The translations under genes and the position numbers were made by a program. Of a DNA stretch of 64,000 nt, positions 15,183 to 27,127 are shown in pieces (positions within the stretch are counted from its first letter, which is position 1; every line of letters starts with the position of its first letter). The stretch is from an uncultured bacterium (lineage in GTDB: Bacteria > Patescibacteriota > Minisyncoccia > Phycocordibacterales > UBA2100), in the NCBI GenBank assembly GCA_903854215.1, contig CAINVT010000009.1:191-64190 (forward strand), in the 5' to 3' direction. Under the pieces are notes generated by a model. It made no database searches. It saw only the letters and a list, made by a program, of their open reading frames with translations, and had not been told where the DNA came from.

Positions 15183-17069
15183 ATGGCAAAAATTTTAGGC
15201 ATCGATTTGGGTACGACCAATTCAGCAATGGCGGTGGTCAAGGGCGGCGAACCTGAGATCATTGAGAATGCTGAGGGGGCCCGTACGACACCGTCCGTCG
15301 TCGCAACATCAAAGACCGGCGAGCGTCTCGTCGGATTGCTCGCACGCCGACAGGCAGTGACCAATCCGAAGAACACGGTCTATCAGATCAAACGCTTTAT
15401 CGGTCACAATTTCGACGAGCCAGCAGTCGAAAAAGATCGTGCTTCCGTGCCATTCGAGACTCAAAAATCCGCTACCGGCGGTATCGAGGTGAAAATGGGC
15501 GATAAATGGTATCGTCCGGAAGAGATTTCGGCGATGATCCTTCAAAAATTGAAGACTGATGCGGAGACACGCCTCGGCGAAACAATCACTGAAGCGGTCA
15601 TAACCGTACCGGCGTATTTTAACGATGCACAGCGCCAGGCCACGAAGGATGCGGGCAAGATCGCCGGCCTCGATGTGAAGCGCATCATCAACGAACCGAC
15701 CGCAGCAGCGCTCGCGTACGGATTCAATAAGAAGAAGAACGAGAAGATCGTCGTATTCGATTTCGGCGGGGGCACCTTCGATATCTCCGTACTTGAAGTC
15801 GGTGATGACGTCATCGAAGTACGTTCGACCGACGGCGACTCACACCTCGGCGGCAAAGACATCGATCAAAAGATCATGGACTGGATCGCAGAAGAATTCA
15901 AAAAAGAATCCGGTATTGATGTTCGCAACGATCCGCTCGCTCGCCAGCGTCTCGACGAAGCCGCGGAGAAAGCGAAGATCGAGCTCTCGACCGCTGTCGA
16001 AAGCGAGATCAACATCCCATTCATTACCTCCGACACTTCGGGCCCCCGTCACCTGCTGGTGAAGTTGAGCCGTGCCAAGCTTGAAGAGCTTACCAATGAA
16101 TTCATCGAGCGTGCCATGACGATTACGAAGCGCGCGATGGAAGCATCGCCGTTCAAGATCACTGATATCAACGAAGTGATCCTTGTCGGCGGTCAGACAC
16201 GTATGCCTGCGATGCAGAAGGCGGTTGAGACATTCTTCAGTAAGAAACCGAATCTGAGCGTCAATCCGGACGAAGTCGTTGCCCTTGGCGCGGCTATACA
16301 GGGCGGTATTTTGCAGGGAGATGTGAAGGACGTACTTTTGCTCGATGTGATCCCGCTCTCGCTGGGTATTGAAACATACGGCGGTGTTGCCACGAAGCTT
16401 ATCGAACGCAATACGACGATCCCGACATCACGTTCGCAAACATTCTCAACCGCATCCGATAATCAACCCTCGGTCGAGATCCACATCGTACAAGGTGAAC
16501 GTCCGATGGCGACTGACAACAAATCGCTCGGCCGGTTCAATCTTGATGGTATTCCTCCCGCGCCGCGCGGTATGCCGCAGGTCGAAGTAAGCTTCGACAT
16601 CGATGCGAACGGTATCCTTTCGGTCAAAGCAAAGGATAAGACAACCAACAAAGAGCAGTCGATCCGCATCGAAGCATCATCCGGACTTTCTGACACAGAA
16701 GTTGAAAAAATGCGCAAAGATGCGGAAGTGAACGCCGAGGCGGACAAGAAGAAACAAGAGCTCGTCGAATCGCAGAATGCTGCCGACCAGATGGTCTATG
16801 CCGCAGAAAAGGCACTCAAAGAACACGGAGACAAAGTATCAGATGATATCAAAAAAGGTGTTCAGGAGAAGATTGATGCTCTGAAGGCGGCGCGCGCCGG
16901 TGTGGACGCACTGACGATCAAGTCCGCCGCGGATGTGCTATCCACTGAAATGAGTAAGATCGGCCCCGCCGTCGCCCAAGCTAAGACAGACGAGGAAGCG
17001 GCAGCGAAGAATCAGCAACCGCCACAAGATCAGACACCTCCTACAGACACAACGGGTGAGCAGAAGTAA
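15183..17069 (+). CDS. dnaK: molecular chaperone DnaK (Hsp70)
   Basis: 628 aa with [21 protein letters not shown] and the full Hsp70 ATPase and substrate-binding domains. Confidence 0.97.
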
Positions 17070-17140
17070 GATTGCTGTGCAAAGGCGTATCAGTGTCCGC
17101 AAAACGAAACACGTTGTGCGTTTAGCAGTGCCAGAATATA

Positions 17141-18241
17141 ATGAATAGCATGAAGGACTACTATACGATTCTCGGCGTACCACGATCGGCGACCGAAGAT
17201 GATATCAAAAAGGCATTTCGCAAGCTCGCCCAAAAATATCATCCCGACAAAAAAGGCGGCGACGAAGCCAAGTTCAAGGAGATGAGCGAAGCGTATTCGA
17301 TCCTTTCCGACAAAAAGCGCCGTGCGGAGTACGATACCTACGGCAAAACGTTCGCCGGCGGCAATGGCGGCAGCGCTTCGGGCGCAGGATTCGGCGGATT
17401 CGACTTCTCGAATTTTCAGCAGGGATTTCAAGGATTCAACGGTCAGAACGTGGAGTTCGATCTCGGCGATATTTTCGGCGATATCTTTGGAGGTGCAGGT
17501 GGGCAATCGCGAGAACAGGCGAGAGGGCGTGATATTTCGATCGATATCGAGCTCACATTTCGCGAGAGTATTTTTGGTGCCGATCGACGCGTGCTTATTT
17601 CAAAGATGGCCGTCTGTGATGTATGCTCCGGCACCGGTGCCAAAAGAGGCACGAAGCTCGTGTCGTGCAAGACATGCAACGGCAAAGGTGAGATCCGCGA
17701 GACACGTAATACGTTCTTCGGTAATTTCACTTCTGCCCGATTATGTCCGACCTGTAGTGGGCGTGGAGAGGTGCCTGAAACACCGTGCGAAGTATGTCAC
17801 GGTGCCGGCGTCGCCAAACGGCAAGAAGAGATTCATATTTCCGTTCCGTCGGGCGTTCTCGATGGAGAAATGATCCGTATGCCCGGTCGCGGCGAAGCGG
17901 TAAAAGCCGGTGGATCGGGTGATCTCTATGTCAAATTACACATAAAGAAAGATGCGTCGTTCTCGCGCGATGGCAACAATCTCCTGACCGCGCTCTCGAT
18001 CAAGCTTACCGATGCACTGCTCGGCGGTGAATATCACATCCGGACACTCGATGGGGAAGAGGTCGTCACTGTGCCTGCAGGTATCGTGCACGGCGAGACC
18101 ATTCGTATCCGCGGCAAAGGAGTTCCCGGAGCTCGCGGCGGCCGAGGTGATCTTCTGGTGCGGATCGATATCGAATTCCCGAAAAAACTGACTCACACGG
18201 CACGTGATCTTATTGATAAGCTTCGCGCTGAAGGACTCTAA
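17141..18241 (+). CDS. dnaJ: molecular chaperone DnaJ
   Basis: J-domain with HPD (KYHPDKK), a G/F-rich linker, and four CxxCxGxG zinc-finger repeats. Confidence 0.95.
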
Positions 18242-19453: not shown

Positions 19454-20734
19454 ATGAAGACAACGACTCAAGTCGCTCGGGATGTTGCCTTTACGGCCAA
19501 CACCCTCGGACGAGTAGCCTGCGATGCGCTCACTCTGCGAACTGGCTACCAGTTTTCGCGTAAACCTGGCAGATTTGCTTTTCTTGTTCATCCGAGAACT
19601 GCAAAACTTAGTCAAACAGGCGTGTATGGCGACAGTGATGTTTTCAAGGCAATTCCCGCCTTCAAATATCTCCGTCACATATTGCCAAAGCAATACGCAG
19701 AGCGTACTACGTTGCGGTTCTTAAGGAGACTACCACCGTCAACGATCGGGTATATATCTGCTCGGGGCGACGGGTATGACGTTTCTGGTCGTCTGCTCAC
19801 CACCCCCCGGCCGTTGGACATTCTGTTCAAGAATCCTGAAGAGACGCGCCCGCATCTCGAAGAGCTTTTCAGACTTGCAGCGTTGCAAGGAAATGATCGG
19901 GTGGGGCTTGGCGGACTTCTGCCTTCGCTCACCCGGGGTGGCAGACTGTTCGCCGGGATGGAACTAGCGTCGCGACCCGCAGTTTCAACCGGACACGCGT
20001 ACACGGCATATGTGATCTCCGAGTATCTGTTGCATCTTGTTTCTCACCGAAATAGAGATGGGGCAGCGCCGGAAGTGGCAGTTGTCGGCGCGGGCGGTTC
20101 AACTGGCAAGGCGATAGTGCGAACGTTTACTCGCGCATGGCCCAGCCGCGACATGTCTCCGATTAACCTGCTTCTCGTCGATACCAGGGAAGATCGGCTG
20201 ACTGAGATTGCTCAAGAAATCTCTGCCTGTCCAGCATTCAATCGTGTCAGGACGAGTGACAATCTCGCATCGATACGGAATTGCGAGTATGTGATCGTCG
20301 TAACTAATGCTCAAAATGCGATCATTAAGCCCGAGCACGTACGTCCGGGAATGGTGATCATTGATGACTCGCAACCTCGCAATACAGGTCCCGAGCTCGA
20401 AAAAGCCGGCTGCTTCGTGCTCGACGTGCTTGCTCGAATCAATGGTCTTGATTGTCGTTTCAACTTCGGCTTCAAAACTCTTGATCGAACGGTAACATTC
20501 ACGTGCTTGGCAGAGACAGTTCTCGCCGCTATTGCGGGATGTTCCGATGACCTCGCAGTCGGGGAAGTGACTTATGACGTGATCGAGCGGATGCTCGAGA
20601 TCGTCGAAGTCGGGAAACATCTCGGAGCGATCGGCGCGATGCCATTTTTCACCTTCGGGAGAGAGATGTCACCGAGCTTGAAAGAAAGACTGCATCAACC
20701 GGCAAAAGGTCGTGCGCTTGCCGCTGCAGAATAG
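19454..20734 (+). CDS. acyl-ACP reductase (AAR)-like NAD(P)-binding protein
   Basis: 426 aa. Three motifs line up with my recollection of cyanobacterial long-chain acyl-ACP reductase: STGHAYTAYVISEYL (cf. TGNTHTAYVICRQV); the Rossmann VAVVGAGGSTGKAIV (cf. VAVVGATGDIGSAV); and YVIVVTNAQNAIIKPEHVRPGMVIIDDSQPRN (cf. [33 protein letters not shown]). The Cys in LDCRFNFGF sits at the position of the AAR catalytic Cys (EHCFDID). Confidence 0.55.
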   Translation: MKTTTQVARDVAFTANTLGRVACDALTLRTGYQFSRKPGRFAFLVHPRTAKLSQTGVYGDSDVFKAIPAFKYLRHILPKQYAERTTLRFLRRLPPSTIGYISARGDGYDVSGRLLTTPRPLDILFKNPEETRPHLEELFRLAALQGNDRVGLGGLLPSLTRGGRLFAGMELASRPAVSTGHAYTAYVISEYLLHLVSHRNRDGAAPEVAVVGAGGSTGKAIVRTFTRAWPSRDMSPINLLLVDTREDRLTEIAQEISACPAFNRVRTSDNLASIRNCEYVIVVTNAQNAIIKPEHVRPGMVIIDDSQPRNTGPELEKAGCFVLDVLARINGLDCRFNFGFKTLDRTVTFTCLAETVLAAIAGCSDDLAVGEVTYDVIERMLEIVEVGKHLGAIGAMPFFTFGREMSPSLKERLHQPAKGRALAAAE

Positions 20735-20815
20735 TGCATATACACTGAGAGCCCCAAGACACCTTGGTGGCTCTCTTTCTTTTGTTACAATATAGAGCGT
20801 GTATACAAGTACGAC

Positions 20816-22417
20816 ATGTCTTTAAACTTCGACACAATCAATATCCTTGTCACCGTTGCGGGCGTGGCAAACCTCGCGTATGGCTTTCTCGTATGGGAGC
20901 GTGGAAAACACGAAAAAATGAATGAGGCGTTTTTCTTTTTTGCTTGTACCGTTACCCTTTGGGCAATCGGAATGTTCTTGTTTCGTGGTACTCTTACAGA
21001 AAGTTCAGCAGTCTTTGCTGCGCGTTTCTTGTACATAGTTGCAGCGCTTATTCCACTTGCTTTCGTTCATTTCGCATTCGTATTTGAAGCACCGTCATAT
21101 AAATACACATCATCAAGGGCAACATTAATCGCAATACCAGGTGCAATAGCTGTTGGCCTCGCAGCGATACCGAACATGCTTATCACCAGTGTTATTTTTG
21201 TACCGGGACATGAGCCGATCATCTTATTCAATCTTTTTTTCCACCTGCTGTATTTTTGCTATATTACCACGTATGCACTCGCCGTTTTAATACTGCTGTT
21301 GAAGCGATTTTCGCAGAGTTCAGGAGTTGTTCGCAACCGGATCGTGTACATTTTAATTGGTACATCTTTGCCGTGGACTGTCGGTATAACAACGAACATT
21401 ATTCTTCCCCTGTTCGGCATCTTTGCCTATAACTGGCTTGGACAAGTATCAACCTTCTTTTCTACGACGGTCATTTCCTACGGAATTTTTCGGTCGCGGC
21501 TCTTCAATGTTCGAGTCGTCACGACCGAGTTGCTCGTGCTTATTGTGACATTCATTTCATTCATACAGATACTTTTGAGCGCGAATGTCAAACAAACATT
21601 TTTGGAAGCGTGTGTCTTCATATTACTGCTCATTGCCGGTTACCTCCTCATTCGGAGTGTTTACCATGAAGCCGAACAACGTGAACTAATCGAACGTCAG
21701 GAAAAAAATCTTGAGGCAGTCAATCTTCAACAAGAAAGCCTCCTTCATTTCATGAGCCATGAGATCAAGGGGTATCTGACAAAAAGCGAGGCGGGGTTTG
21801 CCGCCATCGTACAAGGTGATTTTGACCCCGTCACACCGGAACTTGCGCGCATGGCGAATGATGCGCTTGTCGACATACGCAGGGGCGTTCGCACTGTCAT
21901 AGATATTTTGGACGCGTCGAATCTCAAGCGTGGAACCGTTTCCTTCAAGAAGAATGTGTTCGATCTCAAAGATGTGGTACAAGGCGTAGTCGATCACCTG
22001 AAACCCGCCGCAGACGAAAAACATCTGACCATCAACATGTCTCTCGCGTGGGAAGTGCCGTGCAAGGTTATCGGTGATGAAGAGAAGATTCGCAATCATG
22101 TCATTCGTAATCTTGTCGACAACGCGATCAAATACACACCCGCGGGCACTATTTCCGTGGAAGTCATCCGAGTCGACAAAATAGTGCGATTTAGCATACA
22201 AGATAGCGGCGTTGGCATCACCGATGAAGACAAAAAGAAGCTTTTCACCGAGGGTGGTCATGGCAAAGATTCGGTCAAGGTCAACGTGCATTCGACCGGC
22301 TATGGTCTCTACATCGCGAAGACTATTGTCGAAGCCCAAGGCGGCAAGATTTGGGCCGAGTCCGAAGGGGCAGGGAAGGGGTCGAGATTCGTGGTCGAAT
22401 TGCCTGCTGTTACATAA
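20816..22417 (+). CDS. sensor histidine kinase with an N-terminal polytopic (about 8 TM) sensor domain; no adjacent response regulator
   Basis: H-box SHEIKGYL, N-box VIRNLVDNAIKYT, G1 IQDSGVGI, G2 GYGLYIAKTIVEAQGG. Confidence 0.85.
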   Translation: MSLNFDTINILVTVAGVANLAYGFLVWERGKHEKMNEAFFFFACTVTLWAIGMFLFRGTLTESSAVFAARFLYIVAALIPLAFVHFAFVFEAPSYKYTSSRATLIAIPGAIAVGLAAIPNMLITSVIFVPGHEPIILFNLFFHLLYFCYITTYALAVLILLLKRFSQSSGVVRNRIVYILIGTSLPWTVGITTNIILPLFGIFAYNWLGQVSTFFSTTVISYGIFRSRLFNVRVVTTELLVLIVTFISFIQILLSANVKQTFLEACVFILLLIAGYLLIRSVYHEAEQRELIERQEKNLEAVNLQQESLLHFMSHEIKGYLTKSEAGFAAIVQGDFDPVTPELARMANDALVDIRRGVRTVIDILDASNLKRGTVSFKKNVFDLKDVVQGVVDHLKPAADEKHLTINMSLAWEVPCKVIGDEEKIRNHVIRNLVDNAIKYTPAGTISVEVIRVDKIVRFSIQDSGVGITDEDKKKLFTEGGHGKDSVKVNVHSTGYGLYIAKTIVEAQGGKIWAESEGAGKGSRFVVELPAVT

Positions 22418-22483
22418 AAGTCTCTTTCTAAAGCAAATAGACAGTTTTTATAAACGAGCATATTACGCTCATAATAGCTTTGT

Positions 22484-23944
22484 ATGTCGCGATTAGTCGT
22501 CTTTTGCGGGGGGATGGGAAGTGGAAAATCCACCTGCGCTGAGATCTTGGGAAACCATTTATCGGGAAAAAAAATTCGAGTGAAATACCTTAATGCATAT
22601 AAAGATCTTTACGAACCATTCGCGAGAAAGCAAGGTTTGGAGATACCTACGGACGTAACTCGCGAGAAGAGTAGTGACCTCGTACAGCAACTCTATAAAC
22701 GCTTTGGCAAGGAAATTGGAAGTGAACTTGTTATCGATCTCATGCGCAACAGTCACGACGAGGACATCTATATACTTGACAGTAAAAGGAATCCTGCCGG
22801 TATCACATTTCTTAAAAAAGAGCTCCACGAGCAATGTGTGGTCATTGGTGTTTATGCAAATGAGCAAATTCGCGCGAATCGCCTCATGCGTAGGCAACGC
22901 CCAGATGATGAGTTTCGGAACAGAGACGTAATCACTAATGCCATGCTCAAAGAGGAAACGCTGTATGCTCTCAGTGAATCGCTTAAGCTTGCGGATCACA
23001 CCATTGCGAACATATATGATTCGATTCAAGAACTTGAAGAGGCGATGGCGCCGATCATTGTCCTCCTTTGTGATCAGGAGTATGATCTTGTCAGATATGT
23101 GAGGGCACTTTGGGCGAAATTGATGGCTGTATATTTTCCCACAGAGTCAGTAGATTCAAAAAACAATATGAATACGCTTTTAAAGCTCGCAGTGCAAAAA
23201 GTAGAGCTTGCGAGATTCTATGATAAATATTGCATCAACATACTATCAAACGTAGATATTTCCACTCTGGAGCAGTCCAACAACGAGTTTGAGGTTAAGT
23301 TTCGGTGCACAAACAAGAACAAGGATATTCTATGCTCCTATCTTGAACGTATAGGCATATCAAAACTCCCCGATCACGTGCTTGAAGACGATATTGTTAT
23401 TGACACGGAAGATGGAAAATTGAAGCGGCTGGGTGTTTTGGTAAGATTTCGCAATTCGAATCAAGAACCGTGTCCACTGCTCACTTTAAAGTTTAAACAA
23501 TCGGGAGACAGGACGACCAAGCACGACATCGAATTACAAAAGAATTTGACGAGAGCAAACATGTTTTTCTCCGAACTGGTGAACGACTTCTTCCAGGCGC
23601 TCAACTTAGAAAAAATTGATTTAGAATCCGTTTCGACCCTTCAAAATGGCGATGCCATTCAAAATTTTTTCAGCAATACGGTTTATAATCGCGTGAGAAT
23701 GCGTATCCAGAAACGAAGGAGCTCAATATCGCTATCGAACCACATTCAGGTATGCATTGATGAGCTACCTCATGATATCGGCACGTTTATTGAACTGGAG
23801 TCGGATTCCAAACTACAGCTCGAAAAGTTTATTGATAAAGTTGGTCTTGGTTATGATGTTGCGATAACCGACGACTATGGCAAGCTGGTAATCTCCTTTA
23901 ATGAACAGCACGGACGGACACCTTCTCGCGTAGCGATCTTTTAA
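22484..23944 (+). CDS. P-loop NTPase/kinase domain fused to a C-terminal CYTH (triphosphate tunnel metalloenzyme) domain
   Basis: Walker A VVFCGGMGSGKST at the N-terminus. The C-terminal FEVKFRC...LKRLGVLVRFR...LTLKFKQSG...KHDIELQ...RVRMRIQKRR...GTFIELE matches the CYTH ExExK/R-x-R/ExE pattern. Confidence 0.55.
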   Translation: MSRLVVFCGGMGSGKSTCAEILGNHLSGKKIRVKYLNAYKDLYEPFARKQGLEIPTDVTREKSSDLVQQLYKRFGKEIGSELVIDLMRNSHDEDIYILDSKRNPAGITFLKKELHEQCVVIGVYANEQIRANRLMRRQRPDDEFRNRDVITNAMLKEETLYALSESLKLADHTIANIYDSIQELEEAMAPIIVLLCDQEYDLVRYVRALWAKLMAVYFPTESVDSKNNMNTLLKLAVQKVELARFYDKYCINILSNVDISTLEQSNNEFEVKFRCTNKNKDILCSYLERIGISKLPDHVLEDDIVIDTEDGKLKRLGVLVRFRNSNQEPCPLLTLKFKQSGDRTTKHDIELQKNLTRANMFFSELVNDFFQALNLEKIDLESVSTLQNGDAIQNFFSNTVYNRVRMRIQKRRSSISLSNHIQVCIDELPHDIGTFIELESDSKLQLEKFIDKVGLGYDVAITDDYGKLVISFNEQHGRTPSRVAIF

Positions 23945-23950
23945 CCGAAC

Positions 23951-24939
23951 ATGAAGACAACCGTCACATCTCCCGCGCGGTTACATCTTGGTCTGATAGA
24001 TTGCGGTAACGCCACCCACCGTCTTTTTGGAGGTTTGGGCATATCGGTTGCGGGTCTACACGTACGGCTTGTCGCACAATCGTCAGATAAATGGAACTTT
24101 ACCTTGCGGGCGGACGCGAAGATGAACGGCTTGAACATGAAGTACGATTACTCTTCGAAAGACTACAAAAAATTGGCGCAGCCCCGTGTGATGTTGTCGT
24201 AGTGGACATGCCTCAACAACATTGCGGTCTCGGTTCCAAGACGAGCGTGTTGCTAAGTACAGCTGTCGCGATCGCTGACTTTTCAAATCTTCAACTTGAA
24301 CCCGCACAGCTTATCGCACTCTCGGGCCGCGGAGGTACCTCGGGCATTGGAATTAATACTTTTTTTCTTGGCGGAGTGATTGCCGATTCCGGCCATAGCG
24401 AACCAAAGCACTCTCGGAACTTTGCACCATCTTCGCGACGGATGGGACCAGCATCCTTACCAAAGGTTGTTGCACGAGTCGAAGTACCGGACAATATGCG
24501 CGTTCTCCTTTTTATCGATACTTTCTCGTCGAAAATACGTATTCAAGGCAACGAGGAAATGCGAATATTCGCAGAAACTATGCCTCTCAAAGAAATAGAG
24601 AACCTTCGATCACTCGCCGCCGTGTATCACGGCGTGATACCAGCGTTGCAGGAGGGTGATATGAATATGCTGTTCCAGTCCATCCGTGATCTCAACAGTT
24701 GTGGAATGAAGCAGATTGAAGTAAATCTACAGTCGAATATTACTCAAACTTTTATCCGCGATGTCTGGAGCAATTCGATACCGTGCGGTGTTTCAAGCTT
24801 TGGTCCAATTGTCTTCTGTATAGTTAACGCGAATTCTGACGCTATTACAGTGGCAATGAGGCTGGCACATGTCCATAACCTCACTTGTATGGGCCTCTTT
24901 GCATTCGACAATACTGGTGCAATCAGCGAGCGCTCATGA
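23951..24939 (+). pseudogene. GHMP-kinase superfamily, beta-RFAP-synthase-like gene interrupted by a frameshift near 24105-24130
   Basis: The N-terminal 83-aa ORF (23951..24202, frame 2) carries PARLHLGLID...GGLGISVAG. The 282-aa ORF (24091..24939, frame 1) carries the ATP-binding motif QHCGLGSKTSVLLSTAVAIAD. Both halves are needed for one GHMP-fold protein. Junction sequence: GCGGGCGGACGCGAAGATGAACGG. Confidence 0.5.
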
Positions 24940-24940
24940 T

Positions 24941-25822
24941 ATGGAACGGCTTTCTTTTTTGATTGACGATAGTGATCTTAGGCGCGCGCTCGAAACACTT
25001 GATATTGTCCTTGATTTAAAAAATATTCATAGAACACAACGAGGTTCAGTGATTATTGGAATGCGCGGTTCAGAGAAAGTCGCTGTCAAAATCGCTTCAA
25101 AAGATATATGCGATACGGAATTCGGAATCGTTCCAGCACGTAGTGTGGGACTTCAGAACGAAATTTGTGCACTCCTCAATCTCAAGGACAGCGGTCCGTT
25201 TCCCGAAATGATTGCCTGTATGGTCTCGCCCAAATTCAATATCTGCGTTATGAGATACATAAACGGAATGAGTGGCTTTGGAATTCCCGCCAATCAACGC
25301 CTCTCCGCCGTGCAGGGTCTATTCGTAGCTGTACGACGCCTTCATGAGCTTGGCTACACGCACGGAGATATCCAACCCAACAACATCATCTTTACTGATG
25401 GTCAGAGACCTGCTGTTACTCTGATCGATTTCGAGCTAATTTCACGCATTGATTCATCAGCCCCGCAATATCCCGGAAAGAGAGAGTATCTGTCTCCTGA
25501 AAGTGCGAACGAGGTATTAGGCATAGGATACGTCTCGCGGCACCTGTCACAAGATCTTTATGCGCTTGCTTTATCGTCGCTGACAATTCTTGCAGATAAA
25601 GAGCAAGTGACATACCACGGGCACGATCTTTCCGATGAGCAGAAACTTGGACAAATAGCCGCGCGAAACGTTCGAATTAACACTCCTTCGGGATATTCAG
25701 AACCAGTCTTTGCTCAAGCGCTGGAGAGGCTGATTCTCGATCCAAAATGGTTTGCGCTACGTACTGTAGATGATCTTGCTAAAGTAACTGATCTCCACTT
25801 CGAGAACTTCAATGTGCGCTGA
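24941..25822 (+). CDS. protein-kinase-like (ePK/APH/Kdo-kinase fold) phosphotransferase
   Basis: ATG at 24941, 2 nt after the preceding stop. Catalytic-loop-like YTHGDIQPNNIIF (HGD-x-x-P-x-N) and DFG-like TLIDFE. Lys candidate in VAVKIASKD. Confidence 0.55.
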   Translation: MERLSFLIDDSDLRRALETLDIVLDLKNIHRTQRGSVIIGMRGSEKVAVKIASKDICDTEFGIVPARSVGLQNEICALLNLKDSGPFPEMIACMVSPKFNICVMRYINGMSGFGIPANQRLSAVQGLFVAVRRLHELGYTHGDIQPNNIIFTDGQRPAVTLIDFELISRIDSSAPQYPGKREYLSPESANEVLGIGYVSRHLSQDLYALALSSLTILADKEQVTYHGHDLSDEQKLGQIAARNVRINTPSGYSEPVFAQALERLILDPKWFALRTVDDLAKVTDLHFENFNVR

Positions 25823-26191: not shown

Positions 26192-27127
26192 ATGCAAAAA
26201 CTATTCAGCGGAATAAAGCCAACGGGCACCTTGCACCTGGGGAATTACTTCGGCGCGATGCGGCAATTCGTCGAATTGGCGCCACGCTACGACTGTATGT
26301 TCATGGTCGCCGATTATCATTCAATCAATTCCCAGCGAGACCCAGGCGAGCTTCGCAGCGGTATTATCGACATTGCCGCGGCATTCGTCGCGATCGGGAT
26401 CAATCCGGCACAATCGATCATTTTCAAGCAATCTGACGTGCCGGAGCACACTGAACTCACCTGGGTCTTCAACAACCTCGTCTCGGTATCATTTCTCATG
26501 CAGGCGCATGCGTACAAGGACGCAGTCGCCAACGGCAAAGAGGCCAACATGGGTCTGTTCGATTACCCGATGCTGATGGCATCCGATATCTTGCTCTACA
26601 ACACCGACATCGTTCCGGTCGGCAAAGATCAGCAGCAGCACGTCGAGTACGCGCGCGAGGCTGCGGCAAAGTTCAACAACGCATACGGCGAGACGTTCAA
26701 AGAGCCCAAGGAACACATCCTGGAAGCGGTCGCAGTCGTTCCCGGCACCGACGGCCGCAAGATGAGCAAGAGCTATGGCAATACGATTCCGCTCTTCGGC
26801 ACCAAGGACGAAATCGTGAAGGCAGTCATGTCCATCGTCACAGATTCCAATGCCGAAAGTCCGGAGAATGTTTATGCGATCCACTCGCTCTTCCGCGACA
26901 AGAATGAACTCGCCATCATATATACGGAAAACAAGGGCAAGTATAAGGCGCTCAAAGAAGCGTTGATTGAGGATATCGAGGCATTTGTCGCACCGATGCG
27001 CGAGGTGCGCGACGCGATCACCGATGGAGATGTGAAGAACATCCTGAAAGATGGCGGTGAGCGCGCCCGCGCCATCGCGTCGAAAAAGATGGAAGACGTA
27101 CGGCAAAAAATCGGCATTACCATATAA
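26192..27127 (+). CDS. trpS: tryptophan-tRNA ligase
   Basis: 311 aa with the class I motifs GIKPTGTLHLGNY (HIGH-like) and KMSKS, and TrpRS-length architecture. Confidence 0.93.
   Translation: MQKLFSGIKPTGTLHLGNYFGAMRQFVELAPRYDCMFMVADYHSINSQRDPGELRSGIIDIAAAFVAIGINPAQSIIFKQSDVPEHTELTWVFNNLVSVSFLMQAHAYKDAVANGKEANMGLFDYPMLMASDILLYNTDIVPVGKDQQQHVEYAREAAAKFNNAYGETFKEPKEHILEAVAVVPGTDGRKMSKSYGNTIPLFGTKDEIVKAVMSIVTDSNAESPENVYAIHSLFRDKNELAIIYTENKGKYKALKEALIEDIEAFVAPMREVRDAITDGDVKNILKDGGERARAIASKKMEDVRQKIGITI

What the first reader, a model, noticed from the sequence alone, without database searches (positions are those of the whole stretch)
22484..23944. P-loop kinase fused to a CYTH domain
A Walker-A kinase-like N-terminal domain (VVFCGGMGSGKST) is followed by a C-terminal domain with the CYTH ExExK / R-x-R / ExE signature. 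CYTH enzymes act on triphosphorylated substrates (PPPi, ThTP, NTP cyclisation). Fusion to a nucleotide or nucleoside kinase-like P-loop is an unusual architecture. It could couple phosphorylation and triphosphate hydrolysis on one substrate.
Basis: partly seen in the sequence, partly recalled or inferred. Interest (0 to 1): 0.5.

Follow-up and report, generated by a model that had tools for sequence, protein, structure and literature searches.

The report
Bacterial kinase fused to triphosphate-tunnel hydrolase
This gene really does encode a small-molecule (nucleotide-type) kinase joined to a CYTH "triphosphate tunnel" enzyme; it belongs to a very rare, uncharacterised bacterial family in which this kinase and this tunnel enzyme are always fused or adjacent, here in one operon with an enzyme that makes unusual ribose-phosphate compounds.

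Summary

All catalytic motifs are kept. Published rules classify the domain as a hydrolase, not a class IV cyclase or thiamine triphosphatase.

The family is tiny: about ten two-domain relatives among 1.84 billion representative proteins. None was found in phage or plasmid records. In all 14 independent loci recovered through this kinase, it is fused to, or directly followed by, a CYTH of this clade.

The window's operon is kinase-CYTH, then a ForT/beta-RFAP-synthase-like gene (frameshifted here), then an APH/Kdo-like kinase. That order recurs. One code-25 contig fuses kinase, CYTH and synthase in one ORF.

Best model, by inference: the module makes and processes a PRPP-derived non-canonical ribotide. 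Rivals are anti-phage nucleotide depletion, a regulatory tunnel domain, and a cyclase.

Plants have an analogous kinase-tunnel tandem (AtTTM1/2), built from a different kinase family and an inactive tunnel. I rate this a new variant of a known kind, interest about 0.55.

The parts
22484..23944 (+). Whole ORF, 486 aa: P-loop kinase, helical linker, CYTH/TTM domain
   Evidence: ORF listing; Pfam hits to both domains; full-length homologues P0002-P0005.
22484..23074 (+). N-terminal NMP-kinase-type P-loop kinase domain (residues 1 to about 197)
   Evidence: AAA_18 E 2.9e-6. NCBIfam PRK08356 and the kinase half of the anti-phage dCTP deaminase. PADLOC dCTPase model, E 1.1e-10. PDB sequence hits 3lw7/3h0k, Sso1041. 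AF2 block-mean pLDDT about 70-90 for residues 1-120. Best Foldseek match is AMP-bound Sso1041 3lw7, followed by archaeal adenylate, shikimate and guanylate kinases.
22508..22534 (+). Walker A / P-loop GGMGSGKST (K15)
   Evidence: Translation. G9, G14 and K15 are invariant in kinase alignment A8.
22778..22795 (+). DSKRNP motif (D99, K101, R102, N103, P104). Its position resembles the DGxxR acceptor-phosphate motif of adenylate kinases.
   Evidence: All five residues are invariant in A8; coordinates checked. The comparison with adenylate kinase is from my own knowledge, not a test.
22871..22900 (+). Arg-rich LID-like segment RANRLMRRQR (R130, R133, R137, R139)
   Evidence: R133 and R137 invariant, R130 and R139 in at least 90% of A8; coordinates checked.
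23075..23269 (+). Predicted helical linker (residues about 198-262). It is about 60 aa shorter than in the 549-568 aa homologues. In relatives P0008 and P0010 a domain of about 450 aa sits at this position.
   Evidence: Alignment A1; low-confidence helices in the full-length model; architectures seen.
23270..23941 (+). CYTH / triphosphate tunnel metalloenzyme domain (residues about 263-486)
23285..23299 (+). ExExK motif (E268, E270, K272) on beta1
   Evidence: E268 and E270 conserved in 54/55 sequences, K272 in 53/55.
23444..23452 (+). RxR motif (R321, R323). The first Arg is kept, which marks the hydrolase type rather than the cyclase type.
   Evidence: R conserved in 55/55 at both positions. 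Rule from PMC8233210.
23792..23800 (+). ExE motif (E437, E439) on beta8. The second Glu, the metal-2 ligand, is kept; it is Ala in class IV cyclases.
   Evidence: E437 conserved in 55/55, E439 in 54/55. Rule from PMC8233210.
23951..24939 (+). Operon partner 1: ForT / beta-RFAP-synthase family gene (PRPP-dependent glycoside synthase, GHMP fold). The reading frame breaks between 24104 and 24120: frame of 23951 before, frame of 24091 after.
   Evidence: TIGR00144 141.5 bits, above the cut-off of 113.5. The joined 329-aa product aligns with ForT 6yqq residues 13-310, E 3.5e-19. tblastn with P0124 places the break. The same gene follows the kinase-CYTH gene in L006 and is fused to it in L003.
24941..25822 (+). 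Operon partner 2: eukaryotic-like kinase fold protein (293 aa) with HGDxxxxN (nt 25361) and IDFE (nt 25424) motifs, closer in flavour to APH/Kdo small-molecule kinases
   Evidence: Pkinase 36.6 bits, above 31.7; Kdo, APH, RIO1 and choline kinase hits below threshold. Homologues at 38-45% identity directly follow the kinase-CYTH gene in L001 and L002, follow the synthase in L006, and occur in L013 and L016. Motif positions.

Best explanation
SHOWN.
- The ORF is a genuine two-domain enzyme.
- The N-terminal domain is an NMP-kinase-type P-loop phosphotransferase of the UPF0200/Sso1041/AAA_18 type. This is the family that supplies the kinase half of the anti-phage dCTP deaminase. The Walker A lysine, the DSKRNP motif and the Arg-rich LID-like segment are intact.
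- The C-terminal domain is a CYTH tunnel with every catalytic and triphosphate-binding motif intact.
- The protein is the fused form of a kinase + CYTH pair seen in Patescibacteria-type genomes and metagenomes.
- It is the first gene of a tight three-gene operon, followed by a ForT/beta-RFAP-synthase-type enzyme and an APH/Kdo-like kinase.

INFERRED.
- The CYTH domain is a metal-dependent phosphohydrolase, not a cyclase.
- The operon makes and processes a non-canonical ribotide. The synthase would join an aromatic or heteroaromatic acid to PRPP, giving a ribose-5'-phosphate compound plus PPi.
- The P-loop domain would phosphorylate that compound's phosphate with ATP (NMP to NDP, and onward).
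- The tunnel domain would hydrolyse a tri- or pyrophosphate. This could be the phosphorylated product, which would set its level or remove a toxic triphosphate. It could instead be released PPi/PPPi, which would pull the pathway forward.
- The second kinase would add a further phosphate to the small molecule.
For: Domain identity:
- Sequence and profile hits.
- Structure models and fold matches.

Hydrolase type (55-sequence clade alignment, judged by the rules of Vogt et al. 2021, PMC8233210):
- The first Arg of RxR is R in 55/55.
- The second Glu of ExE is E in 54/55.
- The W/Y position of thiamine triphosphatases is L/I/V/M.
- The window protein has no HF motif before ExExK.

Kinase and CYTH always together:
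- Fused: window, L001, L002, L006, L003; L004/L005, L007, L012.
- CYTH encoded by the next gene: L010, L011, L022, L023, L024.
- CYTH as the N-terminal half of the next gene: L008, L009.

Link to the PRPP enzyme:
- L006 has the window's gene order.
- L003 reads as one kinase-CYTH-synthase ORF if TGA = Gly.
- In L013/L015 and L016 an unfused small P-loop kinase, a CYTH of this clade (E 1e-48 to 1e-53), the synthase and the ePK-like kinase lie together. L013 also has a PRTase and a PF01947 chorismate-lyase-like gene.
- A 35%-identical synthase is followed by a fusion of a Ham1-like NTP pyrophosphatase with an AAA_18 kinase. This is an analogous fusion with a non-homologous NTP hydrolase.
- The synthase family uses PRPP (ForT PMC8183095; RFAP synthase PMC6787355; alignment).
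- In paralogues, a PRTase-like PRPP loop (DDVFYRGRT) sits between the kinase and CYTH (weak evidence).

Operon: the gaps between the three genes are 6 nt and 1 nt.
Against: - No substrate is known and nothing here is biochemical.
- A kinase and a triphosphatase acting on the same molecule would form a futile cycle unless regulated.
- In AtTTM1 the two sites are about 16 A apart and the tunnel appears to regulate rather than channel (PMC9582702).
- L001 and L002 have no synthase gene between the kinase-CYTH and ePK-like genes. These contigs are only 2.5-3.4 kb, so the synthase could lie elsewhere.
- The window's synthase gene is frameshifted. The pathway may be broken in this genome, or the assembly may carry an indel.
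- The larger kinase + middle-domain branch associates with aminotransferases, not with the synthase. The chemistry may therefore differ between branches.
- The full-length model has no confident inter-domain geometry.
Confidence: 0.4

Rival explanations
1. Anti-phage nucleotide depletion or nucleotide-analogue defence. The kinase-like domain would act as in the defensive dCTP deaminase, binding or phosphorylating nucleotides. The CYTH domain would be the effector that destroys (d)NTPs on infection. Alternatively it would be the safety valve for a toxic ribotide made by the ForT-like enzyme. The ePK-like protein would be the sensor or regulator.
For: - The kinase domain matches the PADLOC dCTPase model (E 1.1e-10) and NCBIfam anti-phage dCTP deaminase positions 4-212 (E 2e-7).
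- That kinase domain is required for defence (bioRxiv 10.1101/2021.04.26.441389).
- A related synthase with a Ham1-kinase fusion lies inside a type I R-M / PIN / integrase island.
- The ePK-like protein hits the MkoA, mad6, PD-T4-6 and PglW models.
- GC falls to 0.44 over the gene, against about 0.50 for the window.
- ForT-type enzymes make C-nucleotide antibiotics (PMC8183095).
Against: - No tblastn match in 50,697 phage or 72,556 plasmid records.
- Apart from the Ham1-kinase loci L018-L020, no defence gene was found next to the module in any locus examined.
- The window module lies between dnaK-dnaJ and trpS.
- L010 lies between yebC and ruvC, and L011 next to rpoD/dnaG.
- L013 carries a chorismate-lyase-like gene, a PRTase and hisS.
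- The ePK hits to defence models are generic kinase-fold matches.
- The recurrent aminotransferase partners look metabolic.
Confidence: 0.2
2. Regulatory tunnel, as proposed for plant AtTTM1. The CYTH domain would mainly bind a (poly)phosphate ligand and gate the kinase by occupying or releasing its acceptor site. Hydrolysis would be incidental.
For: - The AtTTM1 crystal structures show the TTM domain inserted into the kinase's acceptor site. The two ligand sites are about 16 A apart (PMC9582702).
- The domain order is the same: kinase at the N-terminus, tunnel at the C-terminus.
Against: - AtTTM1/2 lack the ExExK and ExE motifs (PMC8233210). Here every catalytic residue is conserved across 55 sequences. 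That points to selection for catalysis.
- In many loci the CYTH is a separate protein, and in L013 and L016 it is divergently transcribed. A purely intramolecular gate does not fit those cases.
- The kinase family differs: no PF00485 hit.
Confidence: 0.12
3. Class IV (CyaB-like) nucleotidyl cyclase. The kinase would raise a nucleotide to the triphosphate level, and the CYTH domain would cyclise it to a 3',5'-cyclic signal.
For: - The best PDB sequence-profile matches are CyaB-like proteins: 2aca (5.5e-12), 3n0y, 2fjt.
- Homologues P0003 and P0004 carry HFxxxxExExK, the cyclase-specific N-terminal motif (PMC8233210).
Against: - The window protein has LE, not HF, at those positions.
- The gate-keeper Arg (first R of RxR) is kept in 55/55 sequences.
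- The metal-2 Glu of ExE is kept in 54/55. AC-IVs have a small residue and Ala, respectively (PMC8233210).
- Several proteins annotated as CyaB-like turned out to be triphosphatases (PMC8233210; PDB 6yp4 title).
Confidence: 0.08

Closest known systems
Plant and amoebozoan TTM1/TTM2 (AtTTM1 At1g73980, AtTTM2; PDB 7z67): P-loop kinase + TTM tandem
   Same: The domain order is the same: an N-terminal P-loop small-molecule kinase, a helical linker, then a C-terminal CYTH tunnel. 7z67 is a structural match to the tunnel domain. The idea of coupling between kinase and tunnel has already been raised for it (PMC9582702).
   Different: - The kinase there is of the uridine-cytidine kinase / PRK type (PF00485). 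Here it is UPF0200/AAA_18-like, with no PF00485 hit.
- The plant tunnels lack ExExK and ExE and prefer PPi (PMC8233210). Here all motifs are intact.
- The plant proteins have a C-terminal membrane anchor. This protein ends with the tunnel domain.
- The plant cluster is reported as exclusive to Viridiplantae and Amoebozoa, so this looks like an independent bacterial fusion.
- The operon partners are different.
Single-domain TTM triphosphatases (SaTTM 7ns9/7nsd, CthTTM, NeuTTM 3typ, AtTTM3, E. coli YgiF 5a60)
   Same: Eight-strand tunnel with ExExK, RxR, K, E, R/K and ExE. The sequence determinants predict the same two-metal gamma-phosphate hydrolysis (PMC8233210).
   Different: - About 230 aa rather than 160-200, with extra helices between beta5 and beta6 and at the C-terminus.
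- Sequence identity is only 14-22%.
- It is covalently or genomically tied to a kinase.
- No CHAD domain.
Class IV adenylyl cyclase CyaB (Y. pestis 2fjt/3n0y; V. parahaemolyticus 2aca)
   Different: The window protein meets none of the three cyclase-specific determinants.
[quoted passage not shown]
   Same: These are the best sequence and structure relatives of the N-terminal domain. 3lw7 was crystallised with AMP, so at least one member of this group binds a nucleotide.
   Different: The stand-alone proteins are about 180 aa. In the defence enzyme the partner domain is a zinc cytidine deaminase, not a CYTH domain. The kinase's substrate is unknown in every case.
ForT / beta-RFAP synthase (PDB 6yqq, 8aoz), for the adjacent gene
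   Same: The joined product aligns end to end (E 3.5e-19) and passes the TIGR00144 family cut-off.
   Different: It scores far below the equivalog cut-off (152 against 328 bits), so it is not an orthologue of the methanopterin enzyme. Its acceptor substrate is unknown, and the gene is frameshifted in this window.

Membership tests
CYTH / triphosphate tunnel metalloenzyme superfamily (PF01928) | Profile score at or above Pfam's gathering threshold | tested here: met
   25.7 bits against 23.2, residues 267-443. Homologues P0004-P0010, P0019 and P0026 also pass.
CYTH / triphosphate tunnel metalloenzyme superfamily (PF01928) | Eight-stranded antiparallel beta-barrel tunnel | tested here: met
CYTH / triphosphate tunnel metalloenzyme superfamily (PF01928) | N-terminal ExExK motif plus basic residues lining the tunnel (RxR, K, R) and acidic metal ligands | tested here: met
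   E268, E270, K272, R321, R323, K336, E350, R405, K410, R412, D426, E437 and E439 are present and conserved.
CYTH / triphosphate tunnel metalloenzyme superfamily (PF01928) | Divalent-cation-dependent action on a triphosphate substrate | not testable with these tools
   Needs an enzyme assay.
TTM-type phosphohydrolase subclass (rules of Vogt et al. 2021) | First Arg of RxR retained, second Glu of ExE retained, no HF motif | tested here: met
   R in 55/55, E in 54/55, and the window has L262-E263 at the HF positions. Rules quoted.
Class IV adenylyl cyclase (CyaB) | HFxxxxExExK | tested here: not met
   The window reads LEQSNNEFEVK. Two homologues (P0003, P0004) do have HF.
Class IV adenylyl cyclase (CyaB) | Small residue in place of the first Arg of RxR, and Ala in place of the second Glu of ExE | tested here: not met
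   RFR and ELE are present and conserved across the clade.
Thiamine triphosphatase | W/YxRxR aromatic residue that stacks on the thiazole | tested here: not met
   L319 in the window; L/I/V/M in all 55 sequences.
Plant TTM1/2-type kinase-TTM proteins | PRK / uridine-cytidine-kinase domain (PF00485) N-terminal to the TTM | tested here: not met
   No PF00485 hit at E up to 1. Human UCK2 appears only at Foldseek rank 29, behind Sso1041 and the adenylate, shikimate and guanylate kinases.
Plant TTM1/2-type kinase-TTM proteins | Degenerate tunnel (no ExExK or ExE) and a C-terminal membrane anchor | tested here: not met
   Both motifs are intact. The protein ends ...TPSRVAIF, directly after the tunnel domain, with no hydrophobic tail. 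Family features taken from PMC8233210 and PMC9582702.
P-loop NMP-kinase-like small-molecule kinases | Walker A GxxxxGK[ST] and the three-layer kinase fold with a LID segment | tested here: met
   GGMGSGKST. Model block-mean pLDDT about 70-90 for residues 1-120. Foldseek probability 1.00 to 3lw7, 1ki9, 3trf and 2anc. Conserved R130, R133, R137 and R139.
P-loop NMP-kinase-like small-molecule kinases | Curated family score (Pfam AAA_18 / NCBIfam PRK08356) | tested here: inconclusive
   AAA_18 scores 28.2 bits, just under the cut-off of 29.4. PRK08356 scores 34.6 against 189. The domain is related to both but is a member of neither curated family.
Anti-phage dCTP deaminase (NF041025) | Kinase domain plus a C-terminal zinc cytidine deaminase domain | tested here: not met
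   Only the kinase half matches (profile positions 4-212 of 437; 30.3 bits against a cut-off of 400). There is no deaminase domain.
beta-RFAP synthase / ForT family (neighbouring gene) | TIGR00144 family score and end-to-end alignment with a solved member | tested here: met
   141.5 bits against 113.5 for the C-terminal part. The joined sequence aligns with 6yqq residues 13-310, E 3.5e-19. The equivalog cut-off is not met (152 against 328), and the reading frame is broken.

The most novel reading that the evidence does not exclude
A lineage-restricted four-part enzyme set (P-loop kinase, TTM hydrolase, ForT-like PRPP glycoside synthase, APH-like kinase) that builds a previously unknown phosphorylated C- or N-ribotide. 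The set occurs as separate genes, as a two-domain fusion, or as a triple fusion in Patescibacteria-type bacteria. The product could be a new cofactor or salvage intermediate for these reduced genomes. It could instead be a nucleotide-analogue 'chemical defence' whose triphosphate level the fused kinase/hydrolase sets.
Probability: 0.25. Interest if true: 0.75.

Novelty: new variant of a known kind. Interest (0 to 1): 0.55.

Why it matters
CYTH enzymes are widespread, but most have no known physiological substrate. Here the tunnel enzyme is tied to defined partners by fusion and by conserved gene order: a nucleotide-type kinase, a PRPP-dependent glycoside synthase and a second small-molecule kinase. 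That turns 'what does this CYTH act on?' into a testable question.

It is also, as far as my searches and the cited CYTH surveys show, the first prokaryotic counterpart of the plant kinase-TTM tandem. Unlike the plant proteins it keeps a catalytically intact tunnel, so it could show what kinase-tunnel coupling does when both halves are active.

If the product is a non-canonical nucleotide, it would add either to the sparse known metabolism of candidate-phyla-radiation bacteria or to the list of nucleotide-based defences.

Tried and rejected
- Word-indexed homologue search, with the single protein and with a 10-sequence profile, returned only the protein itself and two relatives. The exhaustive representative search was needed.
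- Back-translated pattern scans with the close-family alignment found nothing in genome, metagenome or viral contigs. The 10-sequence alignment was too diverse for the tool. The kinase alignment then found 4 + 4 loci.
- The first full-length AF2 run, with 3 sequences, failed for the C-terminal half (pLDDT below 50 from residue 198). I discarded it for that domain and replaced it with a domain model built on 55 sequences. No usable inter-domain geometry was obtained.
- The afdb50 fold library was unavailable.
- The source organism could not be named. The exact protein is not on record, its cluster carries no name, and the DnaK look-up returned only an unnamed metagenome scaffold. There are no tRNA or Rfam hits in the window.
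- Programmed -1 frameshift in the synthase gene. I considered this because the window and L006 both shift by -1 within about 10 codons of each other, and L006 does so at A AAA AAG. I rejected it as a conserved feature. Homologues at 40-59% identity are intact at 325-347 aa, L003 reads straight through, and the window site has no slippery heptamer.
- Middle domain of the paralogues as a phosphoribosyltransferase. The only support is marginal hits to the PyrR PRPP loop (E 0.008-0.5), with no Pfam hit. I keep it as a lead, not a finding.
- Upstream genes as part of the module (acyl-ACP-reductase-like 19454-20734; 7TM histidine kinase 20816-22417). They were not found in any related locus, so I did not include them.
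- Iyer and Aravind 2002 (PMC138802) could not be read. What I say about it comes from its citation in PMC8233210.
Full report
**1. The observation**

The ORF lies at exactly 22484..23944 on the + strand, 486 aa with an ATG start. The quoted Walker A string VVFCGGMGSGKST is residues 5-17. The CYTH motifs are EFEVK (268-272), RFR (321-323) and ELE (437-439). I checked all coordinates by translation.

Pfam finds CYTH (PF01928) over residues 267-443 at 25.7 bits, above the gathering score of 23.2. It finds AAA_18 over residues 5-145 at 28.2 bits, just under that family's cut-off of 29.4. NCBIfam and PADLOC relate the N-terminal domain to PRK08356/UPF0200 and to the kinase half of the anti-phage dCTP deaminase (E 2e-7 and 1.1e-10). 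The only solved sequence relatives of the whole protein are the Sso1041 AdkA-like kinases 3lw7 and 3h0k.

**2. Structure**

A first full-length AlphaFold run with three sequences modelled the kinase domain acceptably (block-mean pLDDT about 70-90 for residues 1-120). It failed for the C-terminal half.

The confident part of the kinase model matches AMP-bound Sso1041 best. Archaeal adenylate, shikimate and guanylate kinases follow.

**3. What kind of CYTH**

Vogt et al. 2021 (PMC8233210) give three sequence determinants:
- Class IV cyclases have HFxxxxExExK, a small residue in place of the first Arg of RxR, and Ala in place of the second Glu of ExE.
- Thiamine triphosphatases have W/YxRxR.
- Everything else is a TTM-type hydrolase.

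In the 55-sequence clade alignment the first Arg is R in 55/55. The second Glu is E in 54/55. The W/Y position is L/I/V/M. The window protein has LE where HF would be, although two homologues, P0003 and P0004, do carry HF.

The residues E268, E270, K272, R321, R323, K336, E350, K410, R412, D426, E437 and E439 are invariant or nearly so. The closest solved sequences are CyaB-like proteins, but the determinants predict a metal-dependent phosphohydrolase. This is an inference from published rules, not an assay.

**4. How rare it is**

An exhaustive HMMER search of 1.84 billion representative proteins found 119 hits at E ≤ 1e-3. Only a handful match both halves of the query: P0004, P0005, P0006 and the fragment P0007, plus P0008 and P0010. 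P0002 and P0003 and the fragment P0019 add to these.

The remaining hits are stand-alone kinases of about 190 aa, stand-alone CYTH proteins of about 230 aa, or other fusions. Pattern scans for the close family found nothing in species-representative genomes, JGI metagenomes or viral contigs. tblastn found nothing in phage or plasmid records.

**5. The kinase and the CYTH always travel together**

The same kinase domain occurs in three architectures. It is recognisable by the motifs GxGKT/S, DLYxPF, YI(L/V)DSKRNPEGI and an Arg-rich segment:
- (i) kinase, short linker, CYTH. This is the window's type.
- (ii) kinase, a middle domain of about 450 aa, CYTH (P0008, P0010).
- (iii) kinase and middle domain only.

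I fetched loci by exact protein look-up and by a scan with the kinase profile. I scored all their ORFs with local profiles of the three domains.

In every locus the kinase is either fused to a CYTH of this clade or directly followed by one:
- Fused: L001-L003, L006, L004/L005/L021, L007, L012 and the window.
- Directly followed by a stand-alone CYTH of about 233-248 aa: L010, L011, L023, L024. In L022 the contig ends within the CYTH gene.
- Directly followed by a CYTH + class V aminotransferase fusion: L008 and L009 (hhalign E 3e-52).

That is 14 independent loci (L004, L005 and L021 share one protein), with no exception. Named genomes among them are Candidatus Saccharibacteria and Patescibacteria MAGs, plus two MAGs labelled Gammaproteobacteria.

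The middle domain has a DDVFYRGRT loop. It weakly matches the PRPP loop of PyrR (E 0.008-0.5). I treat that as a lead only.

**6. The operon in the window**

Three genes are packed with gaps of 6 nt and 1 nt: the kinase-CYTH gene, then 23951-24939, then 24941-25822.

The middle gene belongs to the beta-RFAP synthase / ForT family (TIGR00144 141.5 bits against 113.5). Its reading frame breaks between 24104 and 24120. The joined 329-aa product aligns with ForT 6yqq over residues 13-310 (E 3.5e-19). Members of this family join PRPP to an aromatic or heteroaromatic acid (PMC8183095, PMC6787355).

The third gene has a protein-kinase fold (Pkinase 36.6 bits against 31.7). It carries HGDxxxxN and IDFE motifs. 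From my own knowledge, these resemble APH, choline kinase and Kdo kinase more than protein kinases.

The partnership recurs:
- L006 has the same three genes in the same order.
- In L001 and L002 the ePK-like gene directly follows the kinase-CYTH gene.
- L003, a 1,480-nt contig of 30% GC, is a single ORF if its four in-frame TGA codons are read as Gly. They align with Gly or small residues in homologues. It encodes kinase, CYTH and synthase as one polypeptide.
- Starting from synthase homologues, L013/L015 and L016 show the unfused version. A P-loop kinase of 189-193 aa is distantly similar to the window's (hhalign E 1.5e-4 and 7e-6). Next to it lie a divergently transcribed CYTH of this clade (E 1e-48 to 1e-53), the synthase and the ePK-like kinase. 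L013 adds a PRTase and a PF01947 chorismate-lyase-like gene.
- A 35%-identical synthase in a GC-rich genome is followed by a Ham1-like NTP pyrophosphatase fused to an AAA_18 kinase. This lies inside a type I R-M / PIN / integrase island. It is an analogous fusion in which a different NTP hydrolase takes the CYTH's place.

**7. How it most likely works**

Shown:
- Two intact catalytic domains.
- An invariable genomic link between this kinase and this CYTH clade.
- Operon linkage to a PRPP-dependent synthase and a second kinase.

Inferred: the module builds a ribose-5'-phosphate compound from PRPP. The P-loop domain phosphorylates it in the manner of an NMP kinase. The tunnel domain hydrolyses a tri- or pyrophosphate, either that of the product or the released PPi/PPPi. 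I put this at about 0.4.

The main weaknesses:
- The substrate is unknown.
- A kinase and a hydrolase on one molecule risk a futile cycle.
- The synthase gene is absent from the short L001 and L002 contigs.
- The synthase gene is frameshifted in this window.
- The larger branch associates with aminotransferases instead of the synthase.

**8. Rivals**

(a) Anti-phage nucleotide depletion or analogue defence, about 0.2. Support comes from the kinase's similarity to the defensive dCTP deaminase, whose kinase domain is essential (bioRxiv 10.1101/2021.04.26.441389). The Ham1-kinase locus sits in a defence island, and there is a GC dip over the gene. Against it, there are no phage or plasmid matches. 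The flanks are housekeeping genes in the window and in L010, L011 and L013.

(b) A regulatory tunnel as in AtTTM1 (PMC9582702), about 0.12. The intact catalytic residues and the unfused CYTH genes argue against it.

(c) A class IV cyclase, about 0.08. The three determinants argue against it.

**9. Comparison with known systems and novelty**

A P-loop kinase + TTM tandem is known in plants and Amoebozoa. There the kinase is PRK/UCK-type, the tunnel lacks ExExK and ExE, and the protein is membrane-anchored. The cluster is reported as exclusive to those eukaryotes (PMC8233210, PMC9582702).

The window's protein has the same layout but differs in each of those respects, and its partners are different. 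I therefore call it a new variant of a known kind: an independent prokaryotic kinase-tunnel fusion with both halves apparently active.

I found no description of it in the searched literature. That search covers open-access papers only.

**10. Verdict**

The function is unknown, but conserved partners constrain it. Interest is about 0.55.

Noticed in passing
window 23951-24939 (break within 24104-24120): The ForT/beta-RFAP-synthase-like gene is split across two frames with a -1 offset. It is either a recent pseudogene or an assembly indel in the G-rich stretch TTGCGGGCGGACGCGAA. L006 has a -1 offset about 10 codons further on, at a canonical A AAA AAG heptamer. Closer homologues (P0124-P0130) and L003 are uninterrupted, so a conserved programmed frameshift is unlikely.
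   Followed up: yes
L003 1-1480 (Logan SRR12901034_79224): This 30%-GC contig has four in-frame stops, all TGA, each aligned to Gly or a small residue in homologues. That fits genetic code 25 (Gracilibacteria/Absconditabacteria). Read that way, the contig is one ORF fusing kinase, CYTH and synthase.
   Followed up: yes
L004/L005/L021, L007-L012, L022-L024: A sister family carries the same kinase plus a conserved, unannotated middle domain of about 450 aa. Its motifs are QGGNRY, (F/I)DDVFYRGRT, YPFENS..TE.GYW and DQR..G.C.PF. It has no Pfam hit and only a marginal match to the PyrR PRPP loop. Aminotransferases often lie next to or fused with its CYTH partner (class V fused to the CYTH, class I/II adjacent). 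In L005 and L012 the neighbour is DUF1846.
   Followed up: partly
L018/L019/L020 (NCBI GCA_027318265.1, GCA_021817065.1): A Ham1-like NTP pyrophosphatase fused to an AAA_18 kinase (537-542 aa) lies next to a beta-RFAP-synthase-like gene and a Dam-type methyltransferase. All are embedded in a type I R-M / DUF5131 / PIN / integrase island of about 59% GC.
   Followed up: partly
P0046, P0040, P0098: Other fusions of this CYTH clade. P0046 has a weak APH-like kinase hit plus CYTH (578 aa). P0040 and P0098 have CYTH plus a class V aminotransferase (571-583 aa).
   Followed up: partly
window 19454-25822: A block of lower GC (0.44-0.48 against about 0.50-0.53) lies between dnaK-dnaJ (15183-18241) and trpS (26192-27127). 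It holds an acyl-ACP-reductase/PigE-N-like dehydrogenase (19454-20734), a 7TM-receptor histidine kinase (20816-22417) and the three-gene module. The first two genes were not found in any related locus.
   Followed up: partly
P0136-P0138, P0142, P0147 and L013 5098-5697: In methanogens, beta-RFAP synthase is often fused to a PF01947 (Rv2949c-like, chorismate pyruvate-lyase fold) domain. In L013 the same domain is a separate gene just downstream of the ePK-like kinase. This hints that an aromatic acid made on the spot is the synthase's substrate.
   Followed up: no
window 1-64000: The whole 64 kb has no tRNA or tmRNA gene and no Rfam family at gathering score. The source organism could not be named.
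   Followed up: partly
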